From IMG/VR virus record IMGVR_UViG_3300025894_000001: a DNA stretch of 36,240 nt; one strand, given 5' to 3'. Shown piece after piece: positions 1 to 17,897 of the stretch; the first letter of the stretch is position 1; every line of letters starts with the position of its first letter. Both the position numbers and the translations under genes were made by a program. Source of the stretch: a virus. The notes under the pieces are model-generated. The model was not told where the DNA came from and did not search any database. It saw only the letters and a program-made list of their open reading frames with translations.

Positions 1-99
1 CGCTTTGCCGGCGGGTCAAAAAATTACCGAGGCGGGAACTGCCGGTATGACTTTGGCAAAGATCCTTGAAGCGAAACGAATCCTTGATGCAGCTGAAGT
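1..99 (+). repeat. Terminal overlap, identical to 36142..36240
   Basis: Direct comparison of the first and last lines of the sequence shows 99/99 identity. The repeat lies inside the capsid ORF. Confidence 0.95.
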
Positions 100-2822: not shown

Positions 2823-3689
2823 ATGGCAATTGATCCGGCAACAGCTTACGTTGTCACGACTGCTGTTTCCGCTTTTTTGGGAAATTCAGCAGCCGACGAT
2901 GCAGCTGAACGTGCAATTGAAATTGGAACCGCTAACGCAGAAGATTTAAGAACAATTTCAGTCGCTAACGCTGATGAAGTTGTAAAAGTTGCCGGTCTTA
3001 ATGCCGATGCAATTCTTGCGACGGCGAGCCTTAACGCTGACAGCACATTAAAAATTGCAGAAACGAACTCTCTAGCGTTCCTGACTTCAGCTCGAGAAAA
3101 CATTGATTTAGCCGCAACTGAAAATGTTGAGGTCTTGCGGCGCCACGTTCTTCAGGAAAATGCACTTAGTGGATCGATTCGCGCAGCTGCCGGTGCAAGC
3201 GGTGTTCGTATCGGGGCCGGTTCCCCATTGGAAGTTCTTATCGATGCCGTCGAGCAGGGATATGGTGAGCGTCAATATATGGCGAACTATGCCAAGAAGC
3301 GCATTCAGATGATGGGAAATGAAAGTATTCGAAGAGCATCAATCACCATGATGGATGCCGAGGAAAGAGCAAAGGTGCTTATGGAAACTGCTTCAATGCA
3401 AGCAATGATTACTCGAGAAGAGGGCGCGTCATCAGCTCGAATAATGCTGAACGATGCGGAAGCTAACGCAAGATCAATGGAGCGTGGCGGTGCAGCTTAT
3501 GCCTCAAGCTTGCGAGCCGGCGGTACAGCGACATTGATTAATGGGTTAATGAACGCCGGAAACGCTTATCTTCAGTATGGCTCTCCGAGCGCCGCTTCGC
3601 CGACTGCTTCTTCGCCGGCCTTTATTGGGCCGACAGTTGGCACCTCCGGCGGATATACAGGCGGGTTTTCAGCGGGGTATTCGGGATAA
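2823..3689 (+). CDS. Internal virion protein (gp13/14-like slot)
   Basis: The 288-aa product is Ala-rich and helical, with a Gly/Ser-rich C-terminus. Its stop overlaps the next start as TAATG. Confidence 0.5.
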   Translation: MAIDPATAYVVTTAVSAFLGNSAADDAAERAIEIGTANAEDLRTISVANADEVVKVAGLNADAILATASLNADSTLKIAETNSLAFLTSARENIDLAATENVEVLRRHVLQENALSGSIRAAAGASGVRIGAGSPLEVLIDAVEQGYGERQYMANYAKKRIQMMGNESIRRASITMMDAEERAKVLMETASMQAMITREEGASSARIMLNDAEANARSMERGGAAYASSLRAGGTATLINGLMNAGNAYLQYGSPSAASPTASSPAFIGPTVGTSGGYTGGFSAGYSG

Positions 3690-5575
3690 TGAGAATGCCA
3701 CGTTTTCAATATTCGAGCAGTCCTTCAATGTCGGGCGCCTATTCAAGCCCGGTGTTACGAAGCGCGCCTACGTTACGCACTCCGGCATTACGAAACACAT
3801 CCAAATATTTGCGAGATCCTAGAGCCGGACAGCGCAATATGCAGCTCGAGGTTCAAGCTGAACTGGACAAAGCAAAACCATTTCAAGCTTTAGTCGCCGG
3901 GGCGGGTGAGATTGCCGAGACCTTTTTAAAGGCAGACATGAAAAGCAAGTTGACCGAAGCTGAACTCAATCTTCGGATTACGACTGAAGGATTGCTTGCC
4001 AACATGAAATCCATGCCGGTTGGTGCAGCTTCAACAACGATTGATGGCAAAACAGGCCAACCAGATACGAATTATCGTGCGGTTCACGAAACATCACTTG
4101 CAAGCTTTACCGATGAGTTTTCTCGCCACAGAGAAAAGTTATCCAAAACACTACCTCGGGCAGCAAAAGACCAATTTCTCGCCGGTACAGCTGCATATGT
4201 CGCATCAGCTGAAGCTCAAGCTCAAGCGATCAATCGAAAGCAGCACGTTGCCTATTTGCAAGGCACAGTTTTTAGTAATTTGAGAAAAGCTGAGACTCTT
4301 GCCGAAATCGATATTATTGCCGGCGGTGCTGATGCGAGATTGGTTTACGCGCAAGATGATTTATTGAAGTTAGTAGACGCTCGAAAACGCGAGTTAGCCA
4401 ATGACTACTTTGCGACCACAGTCATCGCAGAAAACACGCAGCTCGGATTAGAGAATCTTGAAAACGTTTTTGCAAATAACAATAGAGAATCTCAGCTTGA
4501 TGATGAAAACGGCGATACGATCCCAATGACAGGCGCTCAAATGAGACAGTTTGAATTTATGGGTCATTTAACCGCAGATGACAAACTTGCGTTCGACACA
4601 AAGATTCAAGCCAAGATTAAACGCTTACAGGCTGAAGACGAGCTTAGAAAAGAATCTAATAAGAACTCAATAATGGGCGAGATTTATAACAATCCTGATC
4701 CAAACGTTTACACCTCTGACGCCTTCACCGCAGCTGCCGCAAGTGGCGAAATTAATTTTGAAGATATTCCTGATCTTGATGCGATAGTTAAAGCGCAAAT
4801 TGTCGCAAGATCGCAAGCTGCTCCTGCAACCGATGTTTCTCTTCAGAATCATATTTTGGACAATATCGGTGATTTTGCTTATCGAACTGAAAGGTTGATG
4901 ACGATGCCTTTGGATCCGAATTTTGCAAAAGAGGCGCTTGAGAAAAGACGAAGATTTGATCAGGGTATTCCAGATTGGAAAGATAAGAACAACCCTGCCG
5001 GTAATAAAGGAGCAAGAGCAAACAGAATTTTCGAAAATGCGTTTTATCGCAAAGATGGTGGTTTTATGGATGCAATCTCAATCTTTTCGCCAGATAGAGT
5101 TGAGCAGCTAAACGACCGTTACTTTATCGCCGCGAAAGAGTTAGATGAGTATGCAAACAACGAGATAGATCTCGCGATGGCTGACTCGGAATACACGTTC
5201 GATGAAGCGTTCGATAACATCTATTTGAAAGCCGAGCAGTTAGCGGAAAAAGAACGTCAATATTCTCAAACCGTTAAACAAGAAAAAGGCGCATTTGATC
5301 TAGCGAAAGATGCCGGCTTCACTGGAAGCACAGGCCAATTTTCTCAATATAACACTTGGTCAAGAAACAATAATCAGTTTACTTTCGACGATGTTCTGCA
5401 AATGGATCCCGGCCCGGCTCGAACTGAAAAAGCAAAAACATTGCAAAGTTTTGGTTGGACTTTTGATGCAAAGTTTTTCGAGGAAAAGCTAGAAACTCAA
5501 ACAGCAGAGGAAAAGTTAAGCACCGTTGAAAAGATTTGGAATGCGGTGAACCCTTTTGCTCCAGAGGATGAATAG
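3689..5575 (+). CDS. Internal virion / ejection protein (gp15-like slot)
   Basis: The 628-aa product looks coiled-coil rich. The call rests on synteny between nozzle and fibre genes. Confidence 0.5.
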   Translation: MRMPRFQYSSSPSMSGAYSSPVLRSAPTLRTPALRNTSKYLRDPRAGQRNMQLEVQAELDKAKPFQALVAGAGEIAETFLKADMKSKLTEAELNLRITTEGLLANMKSMPVGAASTTIDGKTGQPDTNYRAVHETSLASFTDEFSRHREKLSKTLPRAAKDQFLAGTAAYVASAEAQAQAINRKQHVAYLQGTVFSNLRKAETLAEIDIIAGGADARLVYAQDDLLKLVDARKRELANDYFATTVIAENTQLGLENLENVFANNNRESQLDDENGDTIPMTGAQMRQFEFMGHLTADDKLAFDTKIQAKIKRLQAEDELRKESNKNSIMGEIYNNPDPNVYTSDAFTAAAASGEINFEDIPDLDAIVKAQIVARSQAAPATDVSLQNHILDNIGDFAYRTERLMTMPLDPNFAKEALEKRRRFDQGIPDWKDKNNPAGNKGARANRIFENAFYRKDGGFMDAISIFSPDRVEQLNDRYFIAAKELDEYANNEIDLAMADSEYTFDEAFDNIYLKAEQLAEKERQYSQTVKQEKGAFDLAKDAGFTGSTGQFSQYNTWSRNNNQFTFDDVLQMDPGPARTEKAKTLQSFGWTFDAKFFEEKLETQTAEEKLSTVEKIWNAVNPFAPEDE

Positions 5576-8299
5576 ATGAGTAATTGGACGCCACCAATGC
5601 TCACCGATCAGCAAATCAACGAACGGTTTGAAGCGCAAACAGAAGCTGAAAATCAATCAATGAGAGATTGGATTAACACGACCAACGACGAGAATTTCAA
5701 TACAACAGAAGATGATCTTCGCCAAAATCCACAGTGGATTCTCGCCAGTAGGGTTTTATACAACCAAAACAACGGCAAGAAGTTCTCTGGAACTGATCAA
5801 GAAGCAGCCGACTATGGCCTCGATCAAATGGGTGCATTCAATTACTCATTCTTTAATATGGATGCGCCGTGGGCTGAAGAAGATACAGTCGGTATGGTTG
5901 GCTACCTTTCAAGGATTCAAGAGTTTGATGATCGCGGCAAGCTTGCCTTCTTGCTGTTGATGAACACCTACGACGAGAAAGATGTCACTTGGGAAGGTGT
6001 CAAAAGAGGTTTTTCAAATGTTTTCCAAGATCCTACGACTTATGGCGGTATTACTACGCTCGCCAGTCTCGGCGCGAAATTTTCGGGACGGTCAGCTGTC
6101 AAAAGCGGAGTGAAGGCTTGGCTTGAACACGCAGCGCATGGCACTTTTTCCCGAACAGGCATGGCGATTGGCGCCTTTGAGGGTGGAAGCTATACCGCAG
6201 CCGATCAAGTTTATCGCGAAAGAATAGACGCAGAGCTTGGGGATCGAGAGGCTTTTAGCGATCTATCAGGGTGGCTATTGGAATCTGCACCTACAATCGT
6301 TTTGGGAACAACTATCGGCGCAGCTATCCCCGCAGCGGGAATGGCAGTCAATCGGCTTCGACCTCGACCCGATATTCCGGTTCCTGATCGACCTGATCTT
6401 ATTGTTGAGGAAGTAAACAAAAACGGCAAACTTCAACGAAATGTTCGAGTTGATGAAGCTGCATTTGATGTTGACGCAGAAAATTTTAACTTTCCTGATC
6501 TAGCACCAACTCTTGCTGACAATCACAGACTTATTGCACAAGACAGTCAGGCCCGAAATAAGAAAGGCTTTGGCGAGCAAAGCGAATTCTTCAATCCAAC
6601 ATTTGGGCATGAAGGGCGCCCGGTCTATAAGGCGATTCGAACTCAATCGCACAACCGGATTATTAACAAGGCTATCGAAAAATCTGGCGACAGCATTCCC
6701 GCTGAAGGTGAGAAAAAGGTCGCTGTCTTTTTAGGCGGCGGCAGCGGTGCCGGCAAAACAACTGGCTTTAAATCGGGAATTGAAAGCGGCGCAATCCCAG
6801 ATCGCCAATATGTGAACATCAACCCAGACGATATAAAAGAACAGCTTTCAGATTACAAGACAATCAAGCGCGAAGGAGACTATCGGGCAGCTATGCAAAC
6901 CCACGAAGAGTCTTCAGACGTTGGGGATCTTTTGCTTGAGCGCGCTGTAAATGACGGTCGAAACGTTTTGATTGACAAAACAATGGCAAATCCTGAGAAG
7001 AATTTGGCATTAATGGAGTTGTTGAGGTCAAAAGGCTACGAGATTCAGTTTATGGGGGTCTCAGTTGACGCAGGAACAGCTGCAATGCGTAACCTAGGGC
7101 GATTCTATAACTCAGGTCGCATCCCTTTCCTACAGGCAATTGGGAGGACTCATAAGGGATTTAACGCAAATACCCGAGCCTATCTTGAAGCTGCAGATCA
7201 AGGCGTCATTATGGATAATTCCGGCGGGTCTTTAGTGATTGCAGCGCGAAAAGGTGAAGACGGCTCAGTCGAAGTATGGGATCCGATGGTCTATAATATG
7301 ATCTTAGAAAGAGGTAACTTAAATGAAGAAGCAAAAACAATCCGAGAACTTCGTGGATCCTCGGTCACGAATGATAACCCCGGAGATTATGGCGAAAGCC
7401 CGCAAGGAAGTGGAAGCGGAGGAGCGCAAACGGAAGGGGCCGCCAGTGGTCTTTCTCCCGAACGACTAAGAGAGCAGCGAGCTGCTGACCTTGGTTTCAG
7501 TGATGAAACCTTCTTTCACGGATCGACTCGGGATTTCACTGAATTTAGCGATAAATTTGGCAATCCCGACAATCACTACGGTCTCGGTCATTACTTTACA
7601 ACGAGCCTCGAAGACGCATCCGACAACTACAGTGGCAGTGGCCCTGATTTAAACATCAGGCTCGAGACTGTCGCGGAAAGTGCCTTCCCCGATCTTGAAG
7701 GTAAAGACGGAATCGATGCAGCTAGAAAGCTGCTTGGCGTCGAAAATGACGGTGTTGTTTACCCAGTTAAGCTTCGCACAGATAAGGTTGTGCGCGTTGG
7801 CGATGATGATGCTTACACTCTTGATGGCGAAAGAGAAACTTTCTGGGAATTAGATCCTTCTGATCCAGATGAAGAAATCTTTGACCCATCCGGGGAGTTT
7901 ATGGATGTTCTTGAAGCAACCATCGAAGCTGCTGACCAGTGGGGCGTTCCAGATACTAATGAGCTGCAGGGAAAACTTTTAGAAGCAGCTATGGATCAGG
8001 AAGGCATGGGCGCTTCTGAGTTTGAAAAAATCTTGCGAGACCATATGGCAAACCTTGGTGCAGACGCATCCCCCGGAACAGTTGTTTCTCAGGTTTACCA
8101 TGATCTTGGATATGACGCTATAGATATGGACGCCGGCGTGTTTAAAAACATGGACGGTGTAGAAGGGCAGCGACACTTCATAATTTTTGATCCAACCAGA
8201 ATAAGATCTATCCACGCCGAGTTTGATAAAAACAAAATCGACAGCGCAAACATTTTATCGAGTGTAGATAATGGCAATCGAAAACGCAGATATTCTTAA
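5576..8299 (+). CDS. Large polyvalent virion protein with a hydrophobic N-terminal region, a zeta-toxin-like P-loop kinase segment and a possible ART-like C-terminal domain
   Basis: The Walker A motif GGGSGAGKT lies at 6734..6760. It is followed by NINPDDIK, THEESSDV, NVLIDKT, GYEIQFMGVSVD and RFYNSGRIP. The C-terminal part carries FFHGSTRDFTEF, GLGHYFTTS and HFIIFDPTRIRS. Confidence 0.6.
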   Translation: MSNWTPPMLTDQQINERFEAQTEAENQSMRDWINTTNDENFNTTEDDLRQNPQWILASRVLYNQNNGKKFSGTDQEAADYGLDQMGAFNYSFFNMDAPWAEEDTVGMVGYLSRIQEFDDRGKLAFLLLMNTYDEKDVTWEGVKRGFSNVFQDPTTYGGITTLASLGAKFSGRSAVKSGVKAWLEHAAHGTFSRTGMAIGAFEGGSYTAADQVYRERIDAELGDREAFSDLSGWLLESAPTIVLGTTIGAAIPAAGMAVNRLRPRPDIPVPDRPDLIVEEVNKNGKLQRNVRVDEAAFDVDAENFNFPDLAPTLADNHRLIAQDSQARNKKGFGEQSEFFNPTFGHEGRPVYKAIRTQSHNRIINKAIEKSGDSIPAEGEKKVAVFLGGGSGAGKTTGFKSGIESGAIPDRQYVNINPDDIKEQLSDYKTIKREGDYRAAMQTHEESSDVGDLLLERAVNDGRNVLIDKTMANPEKNLALMELLRSKGYEIQFMGVSVDAGTAAMRNLGRFYNSGRIPFLQAIGRTHKGFNANTRAYLEAADQGVIMDNSGGSLVIAARKGEDGSVEVWDPMVYNMILERGNLNEEAKTIRELRGSSVTNDNPGDYGESPQGSGSGGAQTEGAASGLSPERLREQRAADLGFSDETFFHGSTRDFTEFSDKFGNPDNHYGLGHYFTTSLEDASDNYSGSGPDLNIRLETVAESAFPDLEGKDGIDAARKLLGVENDGVVYPVKLRTDKVVRVGDDDAYTLDGERETFWELDPSDPDEEIFDPSGEFMDVLEATIEAADQWGVPDTNELQGKLLEAAMDQEGMGASEFEKILRDHMANLGADASPGTVVSQVYHDLGYDAIDMDAGVFKNMDGVEGQRHFIIFDPTRIRSIHAEFDKNKIDSANILSSVDNGNRKRRYS

Positions 8300-11200
8300 T
8301 AAAGAAATCCCGCAAACTTCCACTGAAACCCCGGCACCCGCCGGGGTTTCTGCTTCTGGGGAGCTTGAAATTGATTCTTGGATGGATCAACCCTTCGGAG
8401 ATTCAGAAGAAGATCAGGTTTTAGTCGCCGGTCTGGGAAATGTAGCTCGCGCTATTGCGCGCCCGATCACTACAGCCATTGGGATTGGCAAGGCAAATAT
8501 GGGGGATGCGGTTCCCGAAAATCTCCGATTTAAAAATTTACCCAAAACCGAAGATGACTTTTTCATCAAGGTTGATGTTAATGAAGCGATAGACCGACCG
8601 ATTCGAGTTGATGGTGAAAAGCTCGACACTCCAGAGCTACGCCAAGACAAGATTGATGAGCTTGACTCCCTTCTTAGCCAAGCAGATTACCAAGACTTTG
8701 ACACAACGAAATCTTGGCAGCTAAACCCCCAGAACATAACTTCGGCTGAAGATTTTAATAAAGCTCAAATGGCGATTGCAAAACGCTATCGCGTCGAGAT
8801 AGATAAACAGCGGCGTGGAGTCGTGACCGAAGAAGAGCAGCTCAAGCTTGCTAGGGTTTTTTCCAACGATCCTGAGTTTGCGAAAAAATTTATGACCACT
8901 GGGCCGGGAACCGCGTTATCTGCTGAAGAGCTTAAAGCTGCGCGTTTCCTTGTTTTAAAGTCTGCCGAAAATCTAAAGGCTTCTGCGACTAATTTCAGAC
9001 GCCAAGCAACCGGTGATGATTTACCAGTTGCTGAACTAGAATTTTTGCGGAACTGGAACATTCACAAAGAGTTGGTTGTGAAATGGATGGGCGCCAGAGC
9101 TGAAGCCGGTCGCTCACTTCGTGCAATCTCCGGGCAATCTATCGGAGATATGAAAGATCTATCGCAAGCGCATATCGATGAGCTGACCCGACATTATGGG
9201 AGCGCCGCTGATGTTGCGCGCCTTGCTGATCAAGTTATGGCAGCTCAAGGATTGATTGGCGTCAATAAGACGGTTGCTGCCCAGAAGTCGGGCATAAGTA
9301 AATGGGGCGCGGCAATTGCCGAGAACATGACAGGATCAATTCTATCCGGCCTTTCTACTTTCGGCGTCAATTTTTTTGGCAACGGTTTGATGATCGGTCG
9401 ACACGCCACTCATCTTGCTGTCGCAGCTCGGTTAGGGCGTTGGACAATGGGAGATGCTGCTGTTGTCGAGAAGGGTGAAGCAATGGCTTATTTAATAGGT
9501 TCATTCGCATCTTTCAATCGAGCGCGCCAAGCTTTCGTCATTGCATTAAGAACCGGCGAGCCGTATGGCGGCACCGCGAAATTTGAAGGTGCAAAAGATA
9601 AAGCAATTTCTGCAACCTCTCTGGGCTACGACCCAAAGTCGGCTGCCGGCGCAGCGATCAACGTTTATGGTCATATCGCTCGCGCACCAATGGAGAGAAT
9701 TCTCGGCCCGACAGATGCGCTATATAAAGTAACGAACGAAGGTGGTCACTGGGCGCAGCTCGCGTACCGGCAAGCTGCTAAAGACGCAAGAGCTGAAGGG
9801 TTGAGTGCTGCCGAGCAAGATGTCCGGTTGCAGCAGTATATGGCAAACCCGGATCAAGATACGTTGTTAAGGATGAAAGAATTTGGTGAATACCAGACTT
9901 TCACAAACCCCCTCGGTGAATGGGGTCGTTCAACTCAGAAAATGCTAAATCAGTTCACACTCGGAAGATTGTTAGTTCCGGTTTTTAGAACTCCTGCACA
10001 GATATTTAAAATTGGATTTCTTGAAGATACGCCGCTTGGGTTTCTTTCACAATCGGTAAGAAAAGATTTATATCCAGAGCCGGAAATCGGCAAAGCGCAA
10101 TTGAGCAGTGAGCAGATGGAAAGAATGCAAATGGCTCAGTCTCGAATGACCGTTGGAACTATGACGGTCGCAACAATCGGGGTACTCGCAGCCAATGGAT
10201 ATGTAACAGGGTCGGGGCCGAAAGAATTTGGCGCTCGGGACGCAACGCGAGAGGTTGTTCCTCCCCGCTCTTTTGTGGTGGAGCGTGATGAGTATGGGAA
10301 TCCATCCAAATATATGTCTTTTGATCGGTTAGAGCCTTTCAGCTTGCAGATTGGATTGATGGCTGACTTTTATGAAATCTTACAAGCTTCACAACACATG
10401 GATTTGGATGAATCTCAGATGGAACAAATCATGGATGTTGGAGCTGCACTCACGTTAGGCGTCTATGAGAACACGATCAACAAGACTTATATGCGGGGAA
10501 TAAATGAAGCAATCAGCGCCACTCAAGATCCCGAACGATACCTAGAACGTTGGCAAGCTTCTTTCATTAACGCGCAATTGCCGCTGTCTGGAATCCGGCG
10601 AGATATTCGCAAAATGATTGATCCGATGATGCGAACAACTGAAACACTGTTAGAGCGTTTAAAGAATCAGCTTCCCTATTTTTCAAAAGACCTTCCCGCC
10701 TTAGTAGGGATTCACGGTGAATATATTCCTTATGACCACCTCATGAATCTACCGCTAAAGACTAAAGAGGTTTCAGATGATCCAACCTTCCAAGAGTATA
10801 ACCGTCTGTTTGAATCAACTCGGATTCCCCCGGTCACAAAAGGAACTGCAATTATTGGTGGGCATAAGTTAAATGCACAGCAGAAGCATGATTTCCAAAT
10901 CATTTCAAGAAATGGAATAAAGCTCGAGCTTGATGATCAGAACAATGTTATCGGCGCTTCTTTACCGTCTTATGACCCAAACGCAAATTGGAAGGAGCGA
11001 ATAAAGCCCAAAGGTAGCGGGGTGACCTTTGCAGGAGCTATTCAAAACTTAATGATCTCGGATCAGTACAACTCACCAATGGTGACGGACTATGCGCGAG
11101 TTGAGATGATCAAGAAGATCCAAAACGGATTTGATCGAGCAGCGCGAGAGTTTTTGAAAGCAGAAAACCCAGAAATTCTAGATGCTGTTCTTTTGATTCA

Positions 11201-11312
11201 ACAAAACGAAGCTAGAAGAATGATGGGAAGAGATGCAGCAGATCAAGCTTTTGAAGATGCCGGTGTCGAAGTATTAACGCCGAAAAGTGAACAACCCCTT
11301 TTTAGAAATTAA
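8271..11312 (+). CDS. Large internal virion / DNA-ejection protein (gp16-like slot)
   Basis: The 1013-aa ORF overlaps the previous ORF by 29 nt. It has hydrophobic segments mid-protein. I recognised no lytic transglycosylase motif. Confidence 0.5.
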   Translation: MAIENADILNKEIPQTSTETPAPAGVSASGELEIDSWMDQPFGDSEEDQVLVAGLGNVARAIARPITTAIGIGKANMGDAVPENLRFKNLPKTEDDFFIKVDVNEAIDRPIRVDGEKLDTPELRQDKIDELDSLLSQADYQDFDTTKSWQLNPQNITSAEDFNKAQMAIAKRYRVEIDKQRRGVVTEEEQLKLARVFSNDPEFAKKFMTTGPGTALSAEELKAARFLVLKSAENLKASATNFRRQATGDDLPVAELEFLRNWNIHKELVVKWMGARAEAGRSLRAISGQSIGDMKDLSQAHIDELTRHYGSAADVARLADQVMAAQGLIGVNKTVAAQKSGISKWGAAIAENMTGSILSGLSTFGVNFFGNGLMIGRHATHLAVAARLGRWTMGDAAVVEKGEAMAYLIGSFASFNRARQAFVIALRTGEPYGGTAKFEGAKDKAISATSLGYDPKSAAGAAINVYGHIARAPMERILGPTDALYKVTNEGGHWAQLAYRQAAKDARAEGLSAAEQDVRLQQYMANPDQDTLLRMKEFGEYQTFTNPLGEWGRSTQKMLNQFTLGRLLVPVFRTPAQIFKIGFLEDTPLGFLSQSVRKDLYPEPEIGKAQLSSEQMERMQMAQSRMTVGTMTVATIGVLAANGYVTGSGPKEFGARDATREVVPPRSFVVERDEYGNPSKYMSFDRLEPFSLQIGLMADFYEILQASQHMDLDESQMEQIMDVGAALTLGVYENTINKTYMRGINEAISATQDPERYLERWQASFINAQLPLSGIRRDIRKMIDPMMRTTETLLERLKNQLPYFSKDLPALVGIHGEYIPYDHLMNLPLKTKEVSDDPTFQEYNRLFESTRIPPVTKGTAIIGGHKLNAQQKHDFQIISRNGIKLELDDQNNVIGASLPSYDPNANWKERIKPKGSGVTFAGAIQNLMISDQYNSPMVTDYARVEMIKKIQNGFDRAAREFLKAENPEILDAVLLIQQNEARRMMGRDAADQAFEDAGVEVLTPKSEQPLFRN

Positions 11313-13648: not shown

Positions 13649-13918
13649 ATGAAATACGCAATCGTTAACTCTGGCATCGTTGACAACATCATTGAATGGG
13701 ATGGCAGTTCTGAATACAACGTAGACGGCGTTTTTATTGAAGCAGATGCTAACGCATATATCGGCGGTGTTTACGCTGACGGCGCATTTGTAGCACGACC
13801 GCCCGAACCCGAACCAGAACCAACTCAAGCAGATTTAGATCGTCAAAGTGCAAGAGATAAATTGTCCGCACTAGGTCTTTCTGACGCAGAAATTAACGCA
13901 CTGTCAGGAGGTCTGTAA
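13649..13918 (+). CDS. Small fibre-associated protein (possible assembly chaperone), paralog 1
   Basis: The 89-aa product shares IIEWDGS and PEPEPTQADL motifs with 14517..14831 and 15439..15759. It directly follows a fibre gene. Confidence 0.55.
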   Translation: MKYAIVNSGIVDNIIEWDGSSEYNVDGVFIEADANAYIGGVYADGAFVARPPEPEPEPTQADLDRQSARDKLSALGLSDAEINALSGGL

Positions 13919-14517
13919 TGTCCAGTCTACTTAAAGCAAATTCAATATCAGCCGCGACAGGAGCCACGGTCACGATCCCATCAGGCACGACTCTCGACAT
14001 TGCATCGGGTGCGACGATTGCAAACAGTGGAACTGCTTCTGGGTTTAGTAGCGGGTTTGTTTCTTATGCTCTTATTTGCGATCAGAAATCATCAGGCACT
14101 GCCGGAGGCACATTTGCAAATGCTTTGTGGCGAACCAGAGATTTGAATACAAAAATTGCTGACCCCGATGGCATTGTTTCAATTTCAAGCAATCAATTTA
14201 CTCTTGGAGCGGGTTCATATCTTATAAAGTGGTCTGCGCCCGCCGCAAGAGTTGGTAGGCATAAAGCGGCACTTTATGACGTTACAGGAACAGCGTACAT
14301 CGAATATGGAGATGCACGATGGGGTGATACTTATGACGGTGAATCTGATCCTTCGACCGGAATGGCGCGAGTAACTCCTAGCGGGTCTAATGTTTACGAA
14401 ATACGTCACCATTGTGCAACTGGGTACGCAACTTATGGGTTTGGGTTCGAGGGTGGTGCTGATACTGGTAACGTTGTCGAAAAATACACTTTCGTCGAAA
14501 TTTACAAGGAGGCGTAA
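13918..14517 (+). CDS. Receptor-binding fibre protein, paralog A
   Basis: The 199-aa product carries the NSGTASGF linker, then WRTRDLNT..NQFTLGAGSYLI..LYDVTGT. It is colinear with 14828..15436. Confidence 0.65.
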   Translation: MSSLLKANSISAATGATVTIPSGTTLDIASGATIANSGTASGFSSGFVSYALICDQKSSGTAGGTFANALWRTRDLNTKIADPDGIVSISSNQFTLGAGSYLIKWSAPAARVGRHKAALYDVTGTAYIEYGDARWGDTYDGESDPSTGMARVTPSGSNVYEIRHHCATGYATYGFGFEGGADTGNVVEKYTFVEIYKEA

Positions 14518-14831
14518 TGGACATTAGTCTTTGCATTATTCATTTAGGTCTTAACGCCAATCAATATCGATTAAGCCAGTCAAACACTCCGCATGAGATT
14601 ATTGAGTGGAGTGGTTCTGATCCGCAACCAACACAAGCAGAACTAGAAACAGCATGGTCTGAAATTGAACAAAGCGGGTATTTACAAAAAGAAGAAGATT
14701 ATTCAAGAGCAAGAGCCGAAGCATATCCATCTTGGCAAGAACAAATGGACATGATGTTTCACGATCAAACAGAAGGCTCACGCACTTGGTTAGATGCCAT
14801 TGAAGCCGTCAAGGAGGCATATCCAAAATGA
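14517..14831 (+). CDS. Small fibre-associated protein, paralog 2
   Basis: The 104-aa product contains LGLNANQYRL..IIEWSGSDPQPTQAELETAW. It is coupled to both neighbours by ATGA/TAATG overlaps. Confidence 0.55.
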   Translation: MDISLCIIHLGLNANQYRLSQSNTPHEIIEWSGSDPQPTQAELETAWSEIEQSGYLQKEEDYSRARAEAYPSWQEQMDMMFHDQTEGSRTWLDAIEAVKEAYPK

Positions 14832-15436
14832 GTGAAGTAAAAGTTGACACGATCTCCGAAAGAACTTCTGCTAATGGAGTTGTTGTTGATGGGGTCACAA
14901 TTAAGGACAGTGGGCTAACGATTCCTAGTGGTGGAACGATTACTAACAACGGTACGGCTAGTGGGTTTGGGTTATTTACAAGTTATGCAATTATTTACGA
15001 TCAAAAAACAGTAGGTACGAATGGCGGAAGTTTTACATCTGGAGCATGGAGAACAAGAGATTTAAATACTGTTCATGCTGATCCAGATTCAATAGTAACT
15101 CTTTCTGCCAATCAATTTACTTTAGGTGCGGGAACATATTGGATTGAAGCATTTTCAACTGCGGCTTATATTCAACAGCATCAACTTGCAATTTATGATG
15201 TAACTGGAACTACGCTTTATCCCGGAATAAATAATTTTAGTCAAACTGGTGGAGATCATTGGGGATCTGTAATTGTCAGTATGAGACATACTGCTTCTGC
15301 GTCTAATACTTATGAATTGCAACATAGGTGCAGAACCACAAAGACTAGCACTTCTGCGTTTGGCATTTCACATGGTGGTTACTGGTCGGATACTCCAGAC
15401 ATTTATTCCGTAGTTAAAATTTTTAAAGAGGCTTAA
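14828..15436 (+). CDS. Receptor-binding fibre protein, paralog B
   Basis: The 202-aa product contains NNGTASGF..WRTRDLNT..NQFTLGAGTYWI..IYDVTGT. It is visibly more AT-rich than paralog A. Confidence 0.65.
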   Translation: MSEVKVDTISERTSANGVVVDGVTIKDSGLTIPSGGTITNNGTASGFGLFTSYAIIYDQKTVGTNGGSFTSGAWRTRDLNTVHADPDSIVTLSANQFTLGAGTYWIEAFSTAAYIQQHQLAIYDVTGTTLYPGINNFSQTGGDHWGSVIVSMRHTASASNTYELQHRCRTTKTSTSAFGISHGGYWSDTPDIYSVVKIFKEA

Positions 15437-15438
15437 TC

Positions 15439-15759
15439 ATGGATATTAATATTTGCATTAACAGATTAGGTCTTAATGGAAACCGCTACCGACTTAATCA
15501 GTCTAATCCTCCACATTATTTTATTGAGTGGAGTGGATCAGACCCACAACCAACAGAAGCAGAACTGCAATCGGCGTGGGATTCTTATGTTGCCGAACAA
15601 CCCGCTACCCAATACCAACGTGATCGACAGGCAGAGTATCCGTCTATTGACGAATTGATCGTTGCTCTATGGGAAGGCGTGGTCGAAGAACGCATGGCAT
15701 CTGTTACTGCGTTGGAAGCGGATCGACAGGCGGTTAAAACAAAGTATCCGAAACCATGA
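15439..15759 (+). CDS. Small fibre-associated protein, paralog 3
   Basis: The 106-aa product contains LGLNGNRYRL..FIEWSGSDPQPTEAELQSAW. Confidence 0.55.
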   Translation: MDINICINRLGLNGNRYRLNQSNPPHYFIEWSGSDPQPTEAELQSAWDSYVAEQPATQYQRDRQAEYPSIDELIVALWEGVVEERMASVTALEADRQAVKTKYPKP

Positions 15760-16133
15760 TCAAAGCCTTCGCGCTGACAGCCGCCTTGATAGGCGGTTTT
15801 TTTTCGTCTGCACATTCGCAACAACCGATGCCCAAGGGTATGTATGAGTTCGCCGCTCCAATGACGTTTATGTGTGTCGACTCGTTCGTTCGGATGATGG
15901 AGATTCTTGAAAAAGATTACCGCGAAATCCCGATGGTGATTTCGCACCTCACTCCATCAATGAGCATAATTCTTTTTGTCAATCACGACTCAACCACAAG
16001 CACCGTTGTCGTAACGAAGCGCACCAAAGAAAAAGAACAGGCTTGCATAGTTTTCGGTGGTGCATCTAACGGCACTTCGTTTTCGTTAAACCCTAACCCA
16101 ACCTTTCCGGTTGAAGCGAACTTTGAAGGTTGA
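15756..16133 (+). CDS. Secreted protein of unknown function
   Basis: The start forms an ATGA overlap. The N-terminal signal-like sequence is MIKAFALTAALIGGFFSSAHS. Confidence 0.6.
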   Translation: MIKAFALTAALIGGFFSSAHSQQPMPKGMYEFAAPMTFMCVDSFVRMMEILEKDYREIPMVISHLTPSMSIILFVNHDSTTSTVVVTKRTKEKEQACIVFGGASNGTSFSLNPNPTFPVEANFEG

Positions 16134-16336
16134 CGGACATATCTGAAAAAGAAATCGGGCGGCTCATTGAAAAGGTTGAATCAACCGAAAGAATGATGCA
16201 CGAGATGACAACAAGAATGACAAATCTTGAGGCGCAACTGCATACCCAAAGAGGCTTGGGGATTGGATTGTTAATTGCAATTACCACAGTTACAGCATCT
16301 GGCGCTTCGCTTATCACGAGGTGGCTAAACGCATGA
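16130..16336 (+). CDS. Small protein with a C-terminal transmembrane segment (holin-like candidate)
   Basis: The hydrophobic stretch is GLGIGLLIAITTVTASGASLI. The TTG start is uncertain, and an ATG lies 21 codons in. Confidence 0.45.
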   Translation: MTDISEKEIGRLIEKVESTERMMHEMTTRMTNLEAQLHTQRGLGIGLLIAITTVTASGASLITRWLNA

Positions 16337-16647
16337 ATATCCCAACCTATTTAATCGGCGCAATCATTTTTCTTGTCGGTCAAACGACCGGCGCGATTTG
16401 GTGGGCGTCATCACTTTCAGCCGAAGTCGAAAGGCTCGGTGGAATACAAGGCGGTCAACACACCGCTCAGATAAACGCTCTTCAAGAAGATGCACAGAAG
16501 TGTCAGCTTGAAATTCATAACCTTCAGAAACTTGTAACAGATCAAGGCAATCTGGCAACGGCTATCAAAAGCGTTGACGTAATGGAATTTCGCCTTGAGT
16601 CAATCGAGCAGATGCTCGACAAAGTTCTTGCTACAAAAATTAGATAA
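16333..16647 (+). CDS. N-terminal transmembrane plus coiled-coil protein (lysis-associated candidate)
   Basis: The start forms an ATGA overlap with the previous stop. The TM segment is YLIGAIIFLVGQTTGAIWWA, followed by a heptad-like helical region. Confidence 0.5.
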   Translation: MNIPTYLIGAIIFLVGQTTGAIWWASSLSAEVERLGGIQGGQHTAQINALQEDAQKCQLEIHNLQKLVTDQGNLATAIKSVDVMEFRLESIEQMLDKVLATKIR

Positions 16648-16657
16648 GGAGATAAAA

Positions 16658-16762
16658 GTGCCAAAAGTTGGAAATAAGAAGTTCCCTTACACGGCAAAGG
16701 GCAAAAAAGATGCACAGTCATACGCGAGCAAAAATGCAAAAAAAGCTAAATCAAAAAAGTGA
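16658..16762 (+). CDS. 34-aa lysine-rich peptide (not in the ORF track)
   Basis: A strong AAGGAG site lies 6 nt before the GTG start. The product is VPKVGNKKFPYTAKGKKDAQSYASKNAKKAKSKK. Its stop abuts the next ATG. Confidence 0.5.
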   Translation: MPKVGNKKFPYTAKGKKDAQSYASKNAKKAKSKK

Positions 16763-16975
16763 ATGAAGATCTTTGAACACAACCACGCCAAAGGTAAATA
16801 TTGGCAGCACGCAAAAAGGGCCGGGTTTATCTCCGGCCTTTTTATTGGTAGCGGAGTAGTCGGGATAGCTCATGCCGTTTGCCCGTGGTTCCTCCCTGAG
16901 TTTCTGACTGAGGCAAACAAACGGATCTCAAAAGAGCTTGATCAAAAACTTTGTGAATGTCCGGCTGATGATTGA
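16763..16975 (+). CDS. Small membrane protein
   Basis: The 70-aa product has the hydrophobic core FISGLFIGSGVVGIAHAV. Confidence 0.55.
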   Translation: MKIFEHNHAKGKYWQHAKRAGFISGLFIGSGVVGIAHAVCPWFLPEFLTEANKRISKELDQKLCECPADD

Positions 16976-17396
16976 TCCCTATAAAGGTTTGAACGAATGG
17001 CTCAACGAGCTTGATCAAAAAACTAAAAAAGTATTCTTTATCCTTATTGTGGTTGGGTTTGTCCTAATGATTTCAGCTTGCTCGTCAATGAAAGAGATGG
17101 CGTGGACTTCGGGAGCTGCACTCGCTACCGGCGCCGCAGCTTCAGTTGTGACCGGCACCTTGCCGGCAGTCGCAGCCGGAGCTGCTGCCGGGGGTCTTAC
17201 CGCCGCGGTAATCTCTGACGCACCCAGTTCATTGCCGTCAGCTCCAGAACAGGCGACGAGCGGGTGGGGCGCACTGGCGGTGTTGTTCGCCACTAGTGGC
17301 AAATGGCTCGGGATCTGCGCGCTTGCTTTCATCGTTCTTGGTTGGTTGGTGCCTTCACCCTTCAAGCTGAATAAGCGTGACACCAAGACTGGTTGA
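16968..17396 (+). CDS. Membrane protein with a lipobox-like ISAC and a C-terminal TM segment (u-spanin or holin candidate)
   Basis: The ATG at 16968 overlaps the upstream stop. The protein contains VFFILIVVGFVLMISAC, an Ala/Gly-rich middle and WLGICALAFIVLGWLV near the C-terminus. Confidence 0.5.
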   Translation: MIDPYKGLNEWLNELDQKTKKVFFILIVVGFVLMISACSSMKEMAWTSGAALATGAAASVVTGTLPAVAAGAAAGGLTAAVISDAPSSLPSAPEQATSGWGALAVLFATSGKWLGICALAFIVLGWLVPSPFKLNKRDTKTG

Positions 17397-17610
17397 AGTT
17401 GTTTGGGAAGATATTGCCCAAGATGCGTCTTGGGCGACTGACACAGATTGCGTAACGGTCACTAGCGTCGGCTATCTGGCTGAAGACAGCGAGAAGTATC
17501 TTAAGATAGGTGGGTCAATCACAGAAGATGGAGACATTGCCGGAATTCTCGCTATGCCAAAAGGCTGCGTAATTCTAGTCAAATTTCTGTCGAGAGAATC
17601 GACGCCATAA
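17377..17610 (+). CDS. Hypothetical protein
   Basis: The 77-aa ORF has a GTG start with no clear RBS. It is the only long ORF in this stretch. Confidence 0.4.
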   Translation: MTPRLVEVVWEDIAQDASWATDTDCVTVTSVGYLAEDSEKYLKIGGSITEDGDIAGILAMPKGCVILVKFLSRESTP

Positions 17611-17620
17611 TAGGTGACCC

Positions 17621-17872
17621 ATGAACACCGAAAATTATCCTCAAACTATTTTTGAAACCCCCGGACTCTGCACAACAATAATGAAAATAAACCCGAATCC
17701 CATTCCCCCGGCGGGGCAATTCCATTCGCAGCTAATGAGCGCAAAATCGAAAGCTCAAGTAATCGACATCCTTTGCGCCCGAGGTTCTGCCGCCGGATGG
17801 TTCTCGGATATGCCTGACGGCCTATTCGAGAAACTCGATCAGATGCGTCACACCAAAGGCGAAGCTGCGTAA
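17621..17872 (+). CDS. Hypothetical protein (last gene before attP)
   Basis: The 83-aa ORF starts with ATG. Confidence 0.5.
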   Translation: MNTENYPQTIFETPGLCTTIMKINPNPIPPAGQFHSQLMSAKSKAQVIDILCARGSAAGWFSDMPDGLFEKLDQMRHTKGEAA

Positions 17873-17873
17873 A

Positions 17874-17897
17874 AGTTGTGACCAAAGTTGTGACCAA
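17874..17897 (+). repeat. Tandem 2 x AGTTGTGACCAA, putative integrase arm-type sites (P arm)
   Basis: An exact 24-nt copy lies at 18091..18114 in the same orientation, on the other side of the tRNA-like core. Confidence 0.7.

What the first reader, a model, noticed from the sequence alone, without database searches (positions are those of the whole stretch)
5576..8299. A protein in the ejected-protein slot carries a zeta-toxin-like kinase and a possible ADP-ribosyltransferase-like domain
The 907-aa ORF sits where T7-type phages encode internal core proteins that are ejected with the DNA.

Its central part (about 6590..7260) has, in order, GGGSGAGKT, NINPDDIK, THEESSDV, NVLIDKT, GYEIQFMGVSVD and RFYNSGRIP. 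This order matches Walker A, the substrate Asp and the GR motif of zeta/PezT-type kinases, which phosphorylate UDP-GlcNAc.

The C-terminal part (about 7480..8240) has FFHGST, GHYFTTS and HFIIFDPTRIRS. These resemble the H-Y-[E/D/Q] ART domains reported in phage polyvalent proteins. The third catalytic position is ambiguous here.

A hydrophobic segment (about 6270..6350) precedes both regions. A toxin-type enzyme delivered at injection could act in host takeover, cell-wall remodelling or counter-defence.
Basis: partly seen in the sequence, partly recalled or inferred. Interest (0 to 1): 0.8.

Follow-up and report, generated by a model that had tools for sequence, protein, structure and literature searches.

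The report
Phage ejection protein carrying two enzymes
A temperate T7-like phage has split its largest DNA-ejection protein in two and attached a toxin-type kinase and an ADP-ribosyltransferase to the front half, so these enzymes are probably injected into the host with the DNA; this extends a known phage strategy to a new carrier protein.

Summary
ORF 5576..8299 (907 aa) is real and every quoted motif is at the stated place.

- **Kinase.** Residues 375-552 are a Zeta_toxin-family P-loop kinase (Pfam E 1.3e-28) with the Walker A Lys394 and catalytic Asp418 intact.
- **ART.** Residues 641-890 are an insert-bearing ART-PolyVal domain with the triad H648-Y673-D872. This settles the third catalytic position.
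- **Carrier.** Residues 1-260 are an all-alpha domain plus a Gly-zipper hydrophobic segment. This domain is the N-terminus of LUZ100-gp47-type (T7 gp16-slot) ejection proteins. The next ORF (8271..11312) matches the rest of that family, so the gp16 equivalent is split here and the cargo hangs on the N-fragment.
- **Variable cargo.** Relatives in the same slot carry no ART, another C-terminus, DUF7178, PBECR5, RelA/SpoT, GNAT or SLT.

The UDP-GlcNAc reading is not supported. Two zeta-toxin residues that contact UNAG are missing. The domain is equally distant from Pnkp1, AvrRxo1, PezT and zeta, and its motifs (NPD, H-x-ESS, IDK) are AvrRxo1-like; AvrRxo1 is an NAD 3'-kinase.

Zeta-like kinases and H-Y-D ARTs in injected "polyvalent proteins" were described in 2017, so this is a new variant of a known kind. 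Packaging and both activities remain untested.

The parts
5576..8299 (+). 907-aa ORF: N-fragment of a split gp16-slot ejection protein carrying two enzymatic cargo domains
   Evidence: The identical protein (P0001) was seen on 76 metagenome contigs, always in the same gene order.
5576..6355 (+). Carrier (N) domain, aa 1-260. It has an all-alpha core (aa about 10-195) and is absent from Pfam and PHROGs.
   Evidence: 39% identity to LUZ100 gp47 aa 57-219, E 6e-29. 416 cluster representatives match at E<=1e-3; in 144 of the 150 listed the domain begins within the first 200 residues (the other six within the first 230), and protein lengths range from 93 to 1742 aa. Matches positions 45-304 of a profile of 45 gp47-like proteins, E 1e-65. 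AlphaFold pLDDT is above 85 for aa 1-150 and 72, 64, 90 and 87 in the four blocks to aa 190. No PDB fold match.
6293..6349 (+). Gly-zipper hydrophobic segment TIVLGTTIGAAIPAAGMAV (aa 240-258), a candidate membrane-inserting helix
   Evidence: Highest hydropathy window in the protein, 1.67. G244 and G248 are conserved in at least 90% of 122 family members. Low-confidence region in the model.
6698..7231 (+). Zeta_toxin-family P-loop kinase domain (aa 375-552). Key residues: Walker A K394 (motif at nt 6734-6760), catalytic Asp418 (nt 6827-6829), lid arginines R505, R509 and R515.
   Evidence: Pfam PF06414 E 1.3e-28. Aligned to PezT D66 and zeta D67 and to AvrRxo1 D193. These residues are invariant in the 7 carrier-linked zeta domains.
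7358..7495 (+). Gly/Ser-rich flexible linker (aa 595-640)
   Evidence: Composition G9 S7 A5 in 46 aa. The closest homologue (P0002, on L009) ends immediately before this linker.
7496..8245 (+). ART-PolyVal ADP-ribosyltransferase domain (aa 641-890) with an about 190-aa largely helical insert. Triad: H648 (nt 7517-7519), Y673 (nt 7592-7594), D872 (nt 8189-8191).
   Evidence: Pfam PF18760, 32.1 bits against a cut-off of 31.2 when scanned alone. 33% identity, E 4e-22, to the ART-PolyVal domain of the Myxococcus phage Mx1 polyvalent protein, which matches the Pfam profile over positions 5-137 of 140. A profile search recovered 262 proteins; most of the 120 listed carry PF18760. H and Y are invariant and D is at least 90% conserved. 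The fold model is weak (pLDDT 58), and the ART-like toxin MbcT is the second Foldseek hit.
8271..11312 (+). 1013-aa ORF: C-fragment of the split gp16-slot ejection protein. It overlaps the target ORF by 29 nt in another frame.
   Evidence: Matches phrog_6651 'internal virion protein', E 1.7e-23. Matches positions 514-714, 797-1050 and 1166-1216 of the gp47-like profile, E 7e-18. The start 'MAI...ETPAPAG' is conserved in L009, where the two genes are separated by a 111-nt gap.
2823..5575 (+). Two further ORFs of the ejection-protein slot (288 aa and 628 aa), presumed gp13/14- and gp15-slot proteins
   Evidence: Assigned by synteny only. No Pfam or PHROG hit. 71% and 54% identical to the L009 counterparts.

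Best explanation
The 907-aa protein is a virion-packaged effector carrier, that is, a polyvalent protein built on the ejectosome of a temperate podophage with a T7-type structural module.

**Shown**
- The ancestral gp16-slot ejection protein (LUZ100 gp47 type) has been split.
- Its N-terminal about 260 aa are kept as a carrier: an all-alpha domain plus a Gly-zipper hydrophobic helix.
- A Zeta_toxin-family kinase with AvrRxo1-like motifs follows. After a Gly/Ser linker comes an H-Y-D ART-PolyVal ADP-ribosyltransferase.
- The rest of gp16 is encoded by the next gene.
- The catalytic residues of both enzymes are intact.
- The cargo position is exchangeable among relatives.

**Inferred**
- The carrier domain places a few copies of the protein in the internal core of the capsid.
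- At infection the protein is threaded out with the other ejection proteins.
- The hydrophobic segment helps it reach or cross the inner membrane, and the two enzymes refold in the cytoplasm, where ATP and NAD+ are available.
- There the ART ADP-ribosylates host targets, as T4 Alt does.
- The kinase phosphorylates a nucleotide-type small molecule. NAD+ or a related adenine nucleotide is the most likely acceptor and UDP-GlcNAc is less likely.
- Together they would bias the first minutes of infection through host takeover or pre-emptive counter-defence.
For: **Domains**
- Pfam Zeta_toxin E 1.3e-28. The C-terminus scanned alone scores above the ART-PolyVal cut-off.
- The C-terminus is 33% identical to the Mx1 ART-PolyVal domain, which matches nearly the whole Pfam profile.
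- The family alignment gives H648, Y673 and D872. This matches the H-Y-D configuration published for polyvalent-protein ARTs (PMC5512222).

**Kinase core**
- K394, D418, R505, R509 and R515 are invariant in the carrier-linked zeta domains.
- They align to the catalytic residues of PezT, zeta and AvrRxo1.

**Carrier and slot**
- The gene order is capsid, tail tubular A, tail tubular B, 288 aa, 628 aa, 907 aa, 1013 aa, tail fibre.
- The N-domain is homologous to the LUZ100 gp47 N-terminus.
- The gp47-like profile is covered at positions 45-304 by the 907-aa ORF and at 514-1216 by the 1013-aa ORF.
- One family member has an SLT domain ahead of the N-domain, as T7 gp16 has a lytic transglycosylase first.

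**Cargo modularity**
- The 64%-identical homologue stops before the linker and ART.
- The 44%-identical homologue has an unrelated C-terminus.
- P0152 carries the N-domain plus an ART in the same slot of another phage.
- A Pfam census of 68 carrier proteins found ART-PolyVal in 8, Zeta_toxin in 7, DUF7178 in 7, PBECR5 in 2, RelA_SpoT in 2, and LPD3, SLT and GNAT in 1 each.

**Precedent**
- T7 gp14, gp15 and gp16 are ejected, and the gp16 N-terminal enzyme works after ejection (PMC8954989).
- T4 Alt is an injected ART, and zeta-like kinases fused to MuF have been described (PMC5512222).
Against: - There is no proteomic or structural evidence that this protein or LUZ100 gp47 is in virions. The LUZ100 authors assigned gp46 and gp47 by synteny alone.
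- The carrier family shows no significant sequence or fold match to solved ejection proteins. hhalign against T7 gp16 gives only 6.7% probability.
- The ART model has low confidence (pLDDT 58). Only about 40 residues align directly to the Pfam profile.
- The kinase substrate is unresolved: Pnkp1, AvrRxo1, PezT and zeta score equally.
- The topology is unknown. In T7 the N-part of gp16 stays periplasmic, where neither ATP nor NAD+ is available.
- No immunity or antitoxin gene is adjacent.
Confidence: 0.6

Rival explanations
1. The kinase is a PezT/zeta-type UDP-GlcNAc 3'-kinase. It poisons MurA and weakens the cell wall to aid DNA entry or later lysis.
For: PezT and zeta are the only UDP-sugar kinases hit, and both are significant. 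D418 aligns with the catalytic base D67/D66. E100 and E116 are replaced conservatively by D451 and D467. The idea is published for zeta-like domains in polyvalent proteins (PMC5512222).
Against: The UNAG contacts R120 (UDP phosphates) and T128 (uracil) (PMC3062530) align to A471 and L479. The NPD, H-x-ESS and IDK motifs match AvrRxo1, which lacks the UNAG motif and does not phosphorylate UNAG (PMC5087710). NCBIfam scores AvrRxo1 above PezT, 30.8 against 21.4 bits. Draining a peptidoglycan precursor acts over many minutes and cannot help an ejection that takes seconds to minutes.
Confidence: 0.15
2. The kinase is a polynucleotide 5'-kinase of the Pnkp1 / T4 Pnk type, delivered to repair tRNA or RNA cut by host anticodon nucleases. 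On this reading the ART is an independent effector.
For: The best PDB profile hit is Pnkp1, E 1.1e-7, and the alignment runs through the lid 'R..R...G(R/K).P'. phrog_505 'polynucleotide kinase' scores 6e-9. The motif NINPDDIK resembles the T4 Pnk motif NINRDDYR; that T4 sequence is from my own memory and was not checked here.
Against: Pfam Zeta_toxin (1e-28) far outscores AAA_33, the Pfam family that I take (from my own knowledge, not checked here) to hold Pnk-type kinases (4e-8). No phosphatase or ligase partner domain is present. The Pnkp1 score is only 3 bits above AvrRxo1 and PezT.
Confidence: 0.12
3. The protein is not packaged. It is a late-expressed cytoplasmic toxin that acts in the producing cell, for example to shut down metabolism or help lysis. 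Its position among virion genes is then incidental.
For: There are no virion data. Both enzymes need cytoplasmic substrates. No processing peptidase domain is present in the protein.
Against: The N-domain is the conserved N-terminus of the gp16-slot protein family. The gene is translationally coupled on both sides to core-protein genes. The same carrier bears other polyvalent-type cargo in the same slot in other phages.
Confidence: 0.08
4. The enzyme-like domains are inactive structural filler (pseudoenzymes) in the capsid core.
For: Inactive cargo domains exist in other carriers, for example the inactive PBECR domain in Mu MuF (PMC5512222). The ART carries a large insert.
Against: Every catalytic residue that could be checked is present and conserved among relatives.
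Confidence: 0.04
5. The 907-aa and 1013-aa ORFs are one gene, joined by a programmed frameshift or split by a sequencing error. The cargo would then be an internal insertion in one giant gp16.
For: The two ORFs overlap by 29 nt in different frames.
Against: In L009 the genes are separated by an in-frame stop and a 111-nt spacer. The start of the second ORF, MAI...ETPAPAG, is conserved. The identical arrangement occurs on all six independently assembled contigs examined. Other split pairs exist.
Confidence: 0.02

Closest known systems
Polyvalent proteins of phages and conjugative elements (Iyer, Burroughs, Anand, de Souza, Aravind 2017, PMC5512222)
   Same: Several unrelated enzymatic domains sit in one polypeptide encoded among virion genes and are predicted to be injected with the DNA. 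The H-Y-D ART (Pfam ART-PolyVal) and the zeta-toxin-like kinase are both on that paper's list of cargo domains. The other cargo found here on the same carrier (PBECR5, RelA/SpoT, GNAT, LPD3) is also from that repertoire.
   Different: The carriers described there are MuF, portal, the N4 virion RNA polymerase and DarA/B. The words gp16, internal virion and T7-like do not occur in the text. Here the carrier is the N-fragment of a split gp16-slot ejection protein. No metallopeptidase (MPTase) domain is present. Zeta plus ART on this carrier was seen only in this protein among the 150 listed cluster representatives.
T7 gp16 (internal virion protein D)
   Same: It holds the same slot (after tail tubular B and two or three core proteins, before the tail fibre), is ejected, and carries an enzyme at its N-terminal end that works after ejection (PMC8954989). 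One member of the carrier family has SLT followed by the N-domain.
   Different: Homology is not significant (hhalign 6.7%; no PDB hit). T7 gp16 is one 1318-aa chain with a periplasmic lytic transglycosylase. Here the protein is split and the cargo needs cytoplasmic co-substrates.
LUZ100 gp47 and relatives (temperate T7-like phages)
   Same: There is true homology of the N-domain (39% identity, E 6e-29), and the following ORF is homologous to the remainder. Both phages are temperate podophages with an integrase.
   Different: gp47 is unsplit (1210 aa) and has no Pfam-detectable cargo.
AvrRxo1 (XopAJ), a Xanthomonas type III effector of the zeta-toxin family
   Same: Shared features are the P-loop, the NPD catalytic Asp (D193 = D418), the VH-x-ESS and (I/V)DK motifs and an upstream helix. 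Both are enzymes injected into a target cell.
   Different: The NCBIfam score is only 30.8 bits against a cut-off of 300. The delivery machine differs. NAD 3'-kinase activity is not tested here.
PezT / zeta toxins (type II TA UDP-GlcNAc 3'-kinases)
   Same: Same Pfam family. The Walker A motif and the catalytic Asp are conserved.
   Different: The UNAG contacts R120 and T128 are not conserved. There is no epsilon/PezA antitoxin gene. The domain is part of a structural-gene fusion.
T4 Alt and MuF-fused polymorphic toxins of temperate phages (Jamet et al. 2017; cited from my own knowledge)
   Same: Capsid-packaged enzymes or toxins are delivered with the DNA. The C-terminal toxin cassettes on a conserved N-terminal head-protein domain are variable.
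   Different: Alt is an R-S-E ART in a myovirus head. MuF toxins usually have an adjacent immunity gene, and none is seen here.

Membership tests
Pfam Zeta_toxin (PF06414) P-loop kinase family | Profile match above the gathering score | tested here: met
   100.2 bits against a cut-off of 22.3, E 1.3e-28, aa 375-552 = profile positions 11-191 of 199
Pfam Zeta_toxin (PF06414) P-loop kinase family | Walker A GxxxxGK[ST] and the catalytic Asp (zeta D67, PezT D66, AvrRxo1 D193) | tested here: met
   GGGSGAGKT with K394. D418 aligns to D67, D66 and D193. Both are invariant in 7 relatives.
PezT/zeta UDP-GlcNAc 3'-kinases (type II TA toxins) | UNAG-binding residues (zeta E100, R120, T128) | tested here: not met
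   E100 aligns to D451, which is a conservative change. R120 aligns to A471 and T128 to L479 (residue roles from PMC3062530).
PezT/zeta UDP-GlcNAc 3'-kinases (type II TA toxins) | NCBIfam PezT equivalog score | tested here: not met
   21.4 bits against a cut-off of 470
PezT/zeta UDP-GlcNAc 3'-kinases (type II TA toxins) | Adjacent epsilon/PezA-type antitoxin gene | tested here: not met
   The flanking genes are large core-protein genes that abut or overlap the ORF.
AvrRxo1/XopAJ subfamily (NAD 3'-kinase) | NCBIfam subfamily score | tested here: not met
   30.8 bits against a cut-off of 300. It is nevertheless the best NCBIfam hit.
AvrRxo1/XopAJ subfamily (NAD 3'-kinase) | Phosphorylation of NAD/NAAD at the adenosine 3'-OH | not testable with these tools
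   Only motif sharing is seen (NPD, VH-x-ESS, (I/V)DK).
Pfam ART-PolyVal (PF18760), Tox-ART-HYD2 clade | Profile match above the gathering score | tested here: inconclusive
   27.7 bits in the full protein, below the cut-off of 31.2. 32.1 bits for the isolated C-terminus, but only profile positions 8-45 align. Transitive support comes from the Mx1 domain (E 4e-22) and from 262 profile hits, most of whose 120 listed members carry PF18760.
Pfam ART-PolyVal (PF18760), Tox-ART-HYD2 clade | H (strand 1), Y (strand 2), D (strand 5) active site | tested here: met
   H648, Y673 and D872. H and Y are invariant and D is at least 90% conserved in 84 sequences. The definition is from PMC5512222.
Pfam ART-PolyVal (PF18760), Tox-ART-HYD2 clade | ART fold | tested here: inconclusive
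   The AlphaFold model has pLDDT 58. Foldseek places the ART-like toxin MbcT second, at E 0.16 and probability 0.72.
T7-type ejection (internal core) proteins, gp16 slot | Gene position between tail tubular B and the tail fibre, alongside the other core genes | tested here: met
   The same order is seen in LUZ100, L009, L013 and L018.
T7-type ejection (internal core) proteins, gp16 slot | Sequence or fold homology to T7 gp16 or another solved ejection protein | tested here: inconclusive
   The PDB profile search found nothing. Foldseek found nothing against the PDB. hhalign against T7 gp16 gives 6.7% probability, with a motif-level match to gp16 aa 332-417. The 1013-aa partner matches phrog_6651 'internal virion protein'.
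T7-type ejection (internal core) proteins, gp16 slot | Presence in the virion core and ejection into the host | not testable with these tools
   This needs virion mass spectrometry or cryo-EM.
Polyvalent proteins (Iyer et al. 2017) | Two or more domains of disparate biochemical activity in one polypeptide, encoded among virion or late genes | tested here: met
   Kinase plus ART plus a structural carrier domain within the structural module

The most novel reading that the evidence does not exclude
The N-terminal fragment of the gp16-slot protein may be a general, previously unrecognised delivery platform of temperate T7-like podophages, used to inject exchangeable effector cassettes through the ejectosome. 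In this phage the two cassettes would form one NAD-centred warhead. An AvrRxo1-like 3'-kinase would act on NAD+ or on NAD-derived immune signals such as ADP-ribose-based second messengers. An ART would consume NAD+. Both would be delivered before any phage gene is expressed, to disarm NAD-dependent defence systems.
Probability: 0.12. Interest if true: 0.85.

Novelty: new variant of a known kind. Interest (0 to 1): 0.55.

Why it matters
Ejection proteins of T7-type podophages are usually viewed as conduit builders whose only enzyme is a cell-wall hydrolase. This locus suggests the ejectosome also serves as a protein-injection device for cytoplasmic effectors.

The cargo position behaves like a swappable cassette, as in polymorphic toxins. 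It holds a zeta-like kinase, ART, DUF7178, PBECR5, RelA/SpoT, GNAT or SLT in different phages.

The locus gives a compact, genetically tractable case of about 36 kb, with natural minus-ART and different-C-terminus relatives. It can be used to test three things:
- whether pre-made enzymes shape the first minutes of infection or the lysis-lysogeny choice;
- what an AvrRxo1-like kinase does inside bacteria;
- which host molecules ART-PolyVal domains modify, since none has been characterised biochemically as far as the searched literature shows.

Tried and rejected
- **DNA search.** Megablast of the gene against 50,697 phage genomes found nothing.
- **Word-indexed search.** A search with the ART region alone found nothing. 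It had to be repeated with a 5-sequence profile.
- **PDB profile searches.** The carrier family (A1) and the ART family (A4) gave no hit.
- **Carrier fold searches.** The carrier model gave no hit in the PDB (best E 1.3). It gave only one unnamed 1168-aa viral protein in BFVD, at E 0.011.
- **Cyanophage A4 hit.** Foldseek of the weak ART model put a cyanophage A4 pre-ejectosome chain first (9k3a_B, E 1e-4). I checked A-4L gp26-gp29 with Pfam and found no ART, only M23 in gp28. I treat that hit as unexplained and not as evidence.
- **P0003 C-terminus.** It looks ART-like by eye (FHFT...SFT...FMFN). hhalign against the ART family gives 0.4% probability, so I do not call it an ART.
- **P0085.** A regex hit for an ART triad in the 1742-aa P0085 was not confirmed by Pfam.
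- **Recent acquisition.** Base composition (GC and GC3) shows no sign that the ART cassette was acquired recently.


Full report
**1. Observation**

The window holds an uninterrupted ORF at 5576..8299 (+) of 907 codons. Its ATG follows the stop codon of the upstream 628-aa ORF directly and is preceded by GAGGA.
- Walker A GGGSGAGKT, aa 387-395
- NINPDDIK, aa 414-421
- THEESSDV, aa 442-449
- NVLIDKT, aa 463-469
- GYEIQFMGVSVD, aa 487-498
- RFYNSGRIP, aa 509-517
- FFHGST, aa 646-651
- GHYFTTS, aa 671-677
- HFIIFDPTRIRS, aa 867-878

The hydrophobic stretch at aa 232-261 contains the most hydrophobic 19-residue window of the protein (1.67 at aa 240-258).

**2. Context**

The window is a circular assembly with a 99-nt exact terminal overlap, giving a unit length of 36,141 bp and 49% G+C. 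Its gene order is:
- major capsid protein
- tail tubular A
- tail tubular B
- 288-aa ORF
- 628-aa ORF
- the 907-aa ORF
- 1013-aa ORF (phrog_6651, 'internal virion protein')
- tail fibre

Elsewhere it encodes a T7-type portal, a large terminase subunit, an integrase, a Cas4-like exonuclease, a Sak4-like annealing protein and a primase/helicase. This is a temperate podophage with a T7-type structural module.

The identical protein was seen on 76 metagenome contigs, and the gene order is the same on all six contigs examined. One 92.7-kb contig diverges from the phage sequence exactly after a tRNA 3' fragment next to the integrase gene and runs into DNA carrying a tRNA-Cys. That contig is therefore an integrated prophage.

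**3. The kinase domain**

Pfam Zeta_toxin matches aa 375-552 at E 1.3e-28, and AAA_33 matches at 4e-8. Direct alignment to PezT and zeta places K394 on K46 and D418 on the catalytic base D67/D66. D451 falls on E100, D467 on E116 and T469 on T118.

Six further proteins carry both the N-domain and a zeta domain. Across these seven sequences K394, D418, K421, H443, E445, S446, R505, R509 and R515 are invariant. The phosphotransfer core is therefore intact.

The substrate is another matter. In zeta toxin, R120 binds the UDP phosphates and T128 binds the uracil (PMC3062530). These positions align to A471 and L479 here. A profile of the seven domains scores four structures almost equally:
- Pnkp1 (a polynucleotide kinase), 34.3 bits
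- AvrRxo1, 31.2 bits
- PezT, 30.8 bits
- zeta, 30.8 bits

NCBIfam ranks AvrRxo1/XopAJ (30.8 bits) above PezT (21.4 bits), though both are far below their cut-offs. In the AvrRxo1 alignment four features are shared that PezT and zeta lack:
- 'NPD', with D418 on AvrRxo1 D193. Counting from the ΔN88 construct gives 105 + 88 = 193.
- 'VH-x-ESS'
- '(I/V)DK'
- an upstream helix

AvrRxo1 phosphorylates NAD and NAAD at the adenosine 3'-OH and lacks the UNAG motif (PMC5087710). I conclude that the domain is a Zeta_toxin-family kinase. Its acceptor is unknown. A nucleotide of the NAD type is the best guess and UDP-GlcNAc is the less likely one.

**4. The ART domain**

In the whole protein ART-PolyVal scores 27.7 bits, below the cut-off of 31.2. 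Scanned alone, the C-terminal 278 aa score 32.1 bits, but only profile positions 8-45 align. The reason is a large insert.

tblastn finds 33% and 29% identity over about 240 aa to the polyvalent proteins of Myxococcus phage Mx1 and Tunturiibacter phage Tunturi_5 (E 4e-22 and 5e-21). The matched Mx1 segment hits ART-PolyVal over profile positions 5-137 of 140, spread across 248 residues.

A five-sequence profile recovered 262 proteins at E<=1e-3, and most of the 120 listed carry PF18760. In an 84-sequence alignment H648, G649, S650, Y673 and F674 are invariant, and D872 is at least 90% conserved. Tunturi_5 has Q at the third position.

This is the H-Y-D configuration (strands 1, 2 and 5) that Iyer et al. 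described for ARTs of polyvalent proteins (PMC5512222).

The AlphaFold model built on that alignment is poor (pLDDT 58). Foldseek gives the ART-like NAD+ phosphorylase toxin MbcT only as a weak second hit. The first hit is a cyanophage A4 pre-ejectosome chain that I could not interpret. The ART call therefore rests on sequence and not on fold.

**5. The carrier domain and the split gp16**

Residues 46-225 are 39% identical (E 6e-29) to aa 57-219 of LUZ100 gp47, the 1210-aa protein in the gp16 slot of that temperate T7-like phage. An exhaustive HMMER search with aa 1-330 found 416 cluster representatives at E<=1e-3. In 144 of the 150 listed hits the domain begins within the first 200 residues, and in the other six within the first 230. 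Protein lengths run from 93 to 1742 aa.

I built a profile from 45 members of 1100-1450 aa. It matches LUZ100 gp47 end to end. It matches the 907-aa ORF at profile positions 45-304 (E 1e-65). It matches the following 1013-aa ORF at positions 514-714, 797-1050 and 1166-1216 (E 7e-18). The two ORFs together therefore equal one gp47-like protein, split after the N-domain, with the cargo appended to the N-fragment.

They are separate genes and not a frameshifted fusion:
- The close relative on a Rhodospirillaceae-binned contig (L009) has a stop codon and a 111-nt spacer between them.
- The second ORF begins with the same 'MAI...ETPAPAG' in both genomes.

The N-domain is confidently predicted as all-alpha (pLDDT above 85 for aa 1-150, and 72, 64, 90 and 87 in the four blocks to aa 190). 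It is followed by a low-confidence region containing the Gly-zipper segment, whose G244 and G248 are nearly invariant. It has no Pfam or PHROG model. It has no PDB or BFVD fold match worth the name.

Against T7 gp16 the family profile gives only a weak hhalign match (6.7% probability). The match covers gp16 aa 332-417 and shares DPxxY, KGxK, EGA, LRQ, AGG and a Gly-rich hydrophobic run. One family member has an SLT domain ahead of the N-domain, the T7 gp16 order.

The LUZ100 authors themselves assigned gp46 and gp47 by synteny only (PMC10134795). Ejection-protein status is therefore well supported by position and family, but it is not demonstrated.

**6. Cargo is exchangeable**

- The 64%-identical homologue (P0002, on L009) ends at the residue equivalent to about 594, just before the Gly/Ser linker, and so lacks the ART.
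- The 44%-identical homologue (P0003) keeps the carrier and kinase. It ends in an unrelated domain of about 170 aa with no Pfam hit and no hhalign similarity to ARTs.
- Among 68 carrier proteins of 330-1010 aa, Pfam finds ART-PolyVal in 8, Zeta_toxin in 7, DUF7178 in 7, PBECR5 in 2, RelA_SpoT in 2, and LPD3, SLT and GNAT in 1 each.
- Seven of the ten nearest carrier relatives scanned carry DUF7178 where this protein has the kinase.
- P0152 (carrier plus ART) and P0008 (carrier plus kinase) lie in the same slot of other phage contigs.
- Among the 150 listed representatives, only this protein combines the kinase with an ART.
- Its ART is closer to those of Mx1 and Tunturi_5 (33% and 32% in that alignment) than to ARTs on the same carrier (20% and 26%). 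This suggests the cassette was acquired laterally.

**7. Mechanism**

What is shown:
- the architecture
- intact catalytic residues
- the split
- the slot
- the modularity of the cargo

What is inferred:
- The carrier places the protein in the capsid core.
- The protein is ejected with the 288-, 628- and 1013-aa proteins.
- The hydrophobic segment engages the inner membrane.
- The kinase and ART refold in the cytoplasm and act on a nucleotide-type metabolite and on host macromolecules, respectively.

Precedents are T7 gp16, whose N-terminal transglycosylase works after ejection (PMC8954989), and T4 Alt, N4 vRNAP-ART fusions and MuF fusions (PMC5512222).

The main uncertainty is topology. The N-part of T7 gp16 stays in the periplasm, where ATP and NAD+ are absent. 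The cargo must therefore reach the cytoplasm for this model to hold.

**8. Comparison with what is known, and novelty**

The idea that phages inject multi-enzyme 'polyvalent' proteins was published in 2017, as were both cargo families. That paper names MuF, portal, N4 vRNAP and Dar proteins as carriers. It does not mention T7-type internal virion proteins.

Literature searches for zeta toxin or ADP-ribosyltransferase together with 'internal virion protein' found nothing relevant. The finding is therefore a new variant of a known kind. It has three new elements:
- a new carrier, the N-fragment of a split gp16-slot protein, which no curated family covers
- a new domain combination
- a kinase that looks AvrRxo1-like rather than PezT-like

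**9. Verdict**

Interest is 0.55.

Noticed in passing
window 1-99 and 36142-36240: There is an exact 99-nt terminal overlap. The window is a circularly closed assembly of a 36,141-bp phage genome (49% G+C). One metagenome contig of 72.6 kb is almost exactly twice this length and may be a concatemer.
   Followed up: partly
window 18003-18042, next to the integrase gene 18171-19334 (-); L004 22427-22724: A tRNA 3'-end fragment (GGTCGCGAGTTCGAATCTCGTTTCCCGCTCCA) sits beside the integrase gene. A 92.7-kb metagenome contig is identical to the phage up to window position 18042, then diverges into DNA carrying a tRNA-Cys. This marks attP and an integrated prophage. The host was not identified. The nearest genome hit is a contig binned to a Rhodospirillaceae MAG.
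   Followed up: partly
window 13918-14831 and 14828-15759: A gene pair is tandemly duplicated. The 199-aa and 202-aa proteins (phrog_24210, tail fibre) are 44% identical. The 104-aa and 106-aa XkdW-like proteins are 47% identical. They may be alternative receptor-binding tips with their chaperones.
   Followed up: partly
P0003 aa about 665-817 (L013 1062-3515): The 44%-identical homologue replaces the ART with an unrelated domain of about 170 aa (FHFTDS...GDAVSFTH...LFMFNTD). It has no Pfam hit and 0.4% hhalign probability against ART-PolyVal, so it is an unassigned cargo domain.
   Followed up: partly
model of window aa 630-907 against PDB 9k3a_B: The best Foldseek hit of the low-confidence ART model is a 1071-residue chain of the cyanophage A4 pre-ejectosome (E 1e-4, probability 1.0, TM 0.36). 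A-4L gp26-gp29 show no ART by Pfam. According to the paper, gp28 has an unassigned alpha+beta domain. The meaning of this hit is unknown.
   Followed up: partly
window 34688-35602: The 304-aa ORF in the scaffold position matches a PHROG annotated as protease (phrog_458, E 2e-19) as well as phrog_3742. If it is a prohead protease, it could process the Gly/Ser linker of the 907-aa protein.
   Followed up: no
whole window, non-structural half (about 16000-30500): No ORF long enough for a T7-type RNA polymerase or a family-A DNA polymerase was seen; the largest is the 450-aa primase/helicase. The phage therefore has a T7-type structural module but not the Autographiviridae hallmark polymerase, unlike LUZ100.
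   Followed up: no
P0006, P0010, P0012, P0013, P0018, P0023, P0033 (carrier-family proteins): DUF7178 is the most common cargo on the closest carrier relatives, at the position where this phage has the kinase. Its function is unknown.
   Followed up: no
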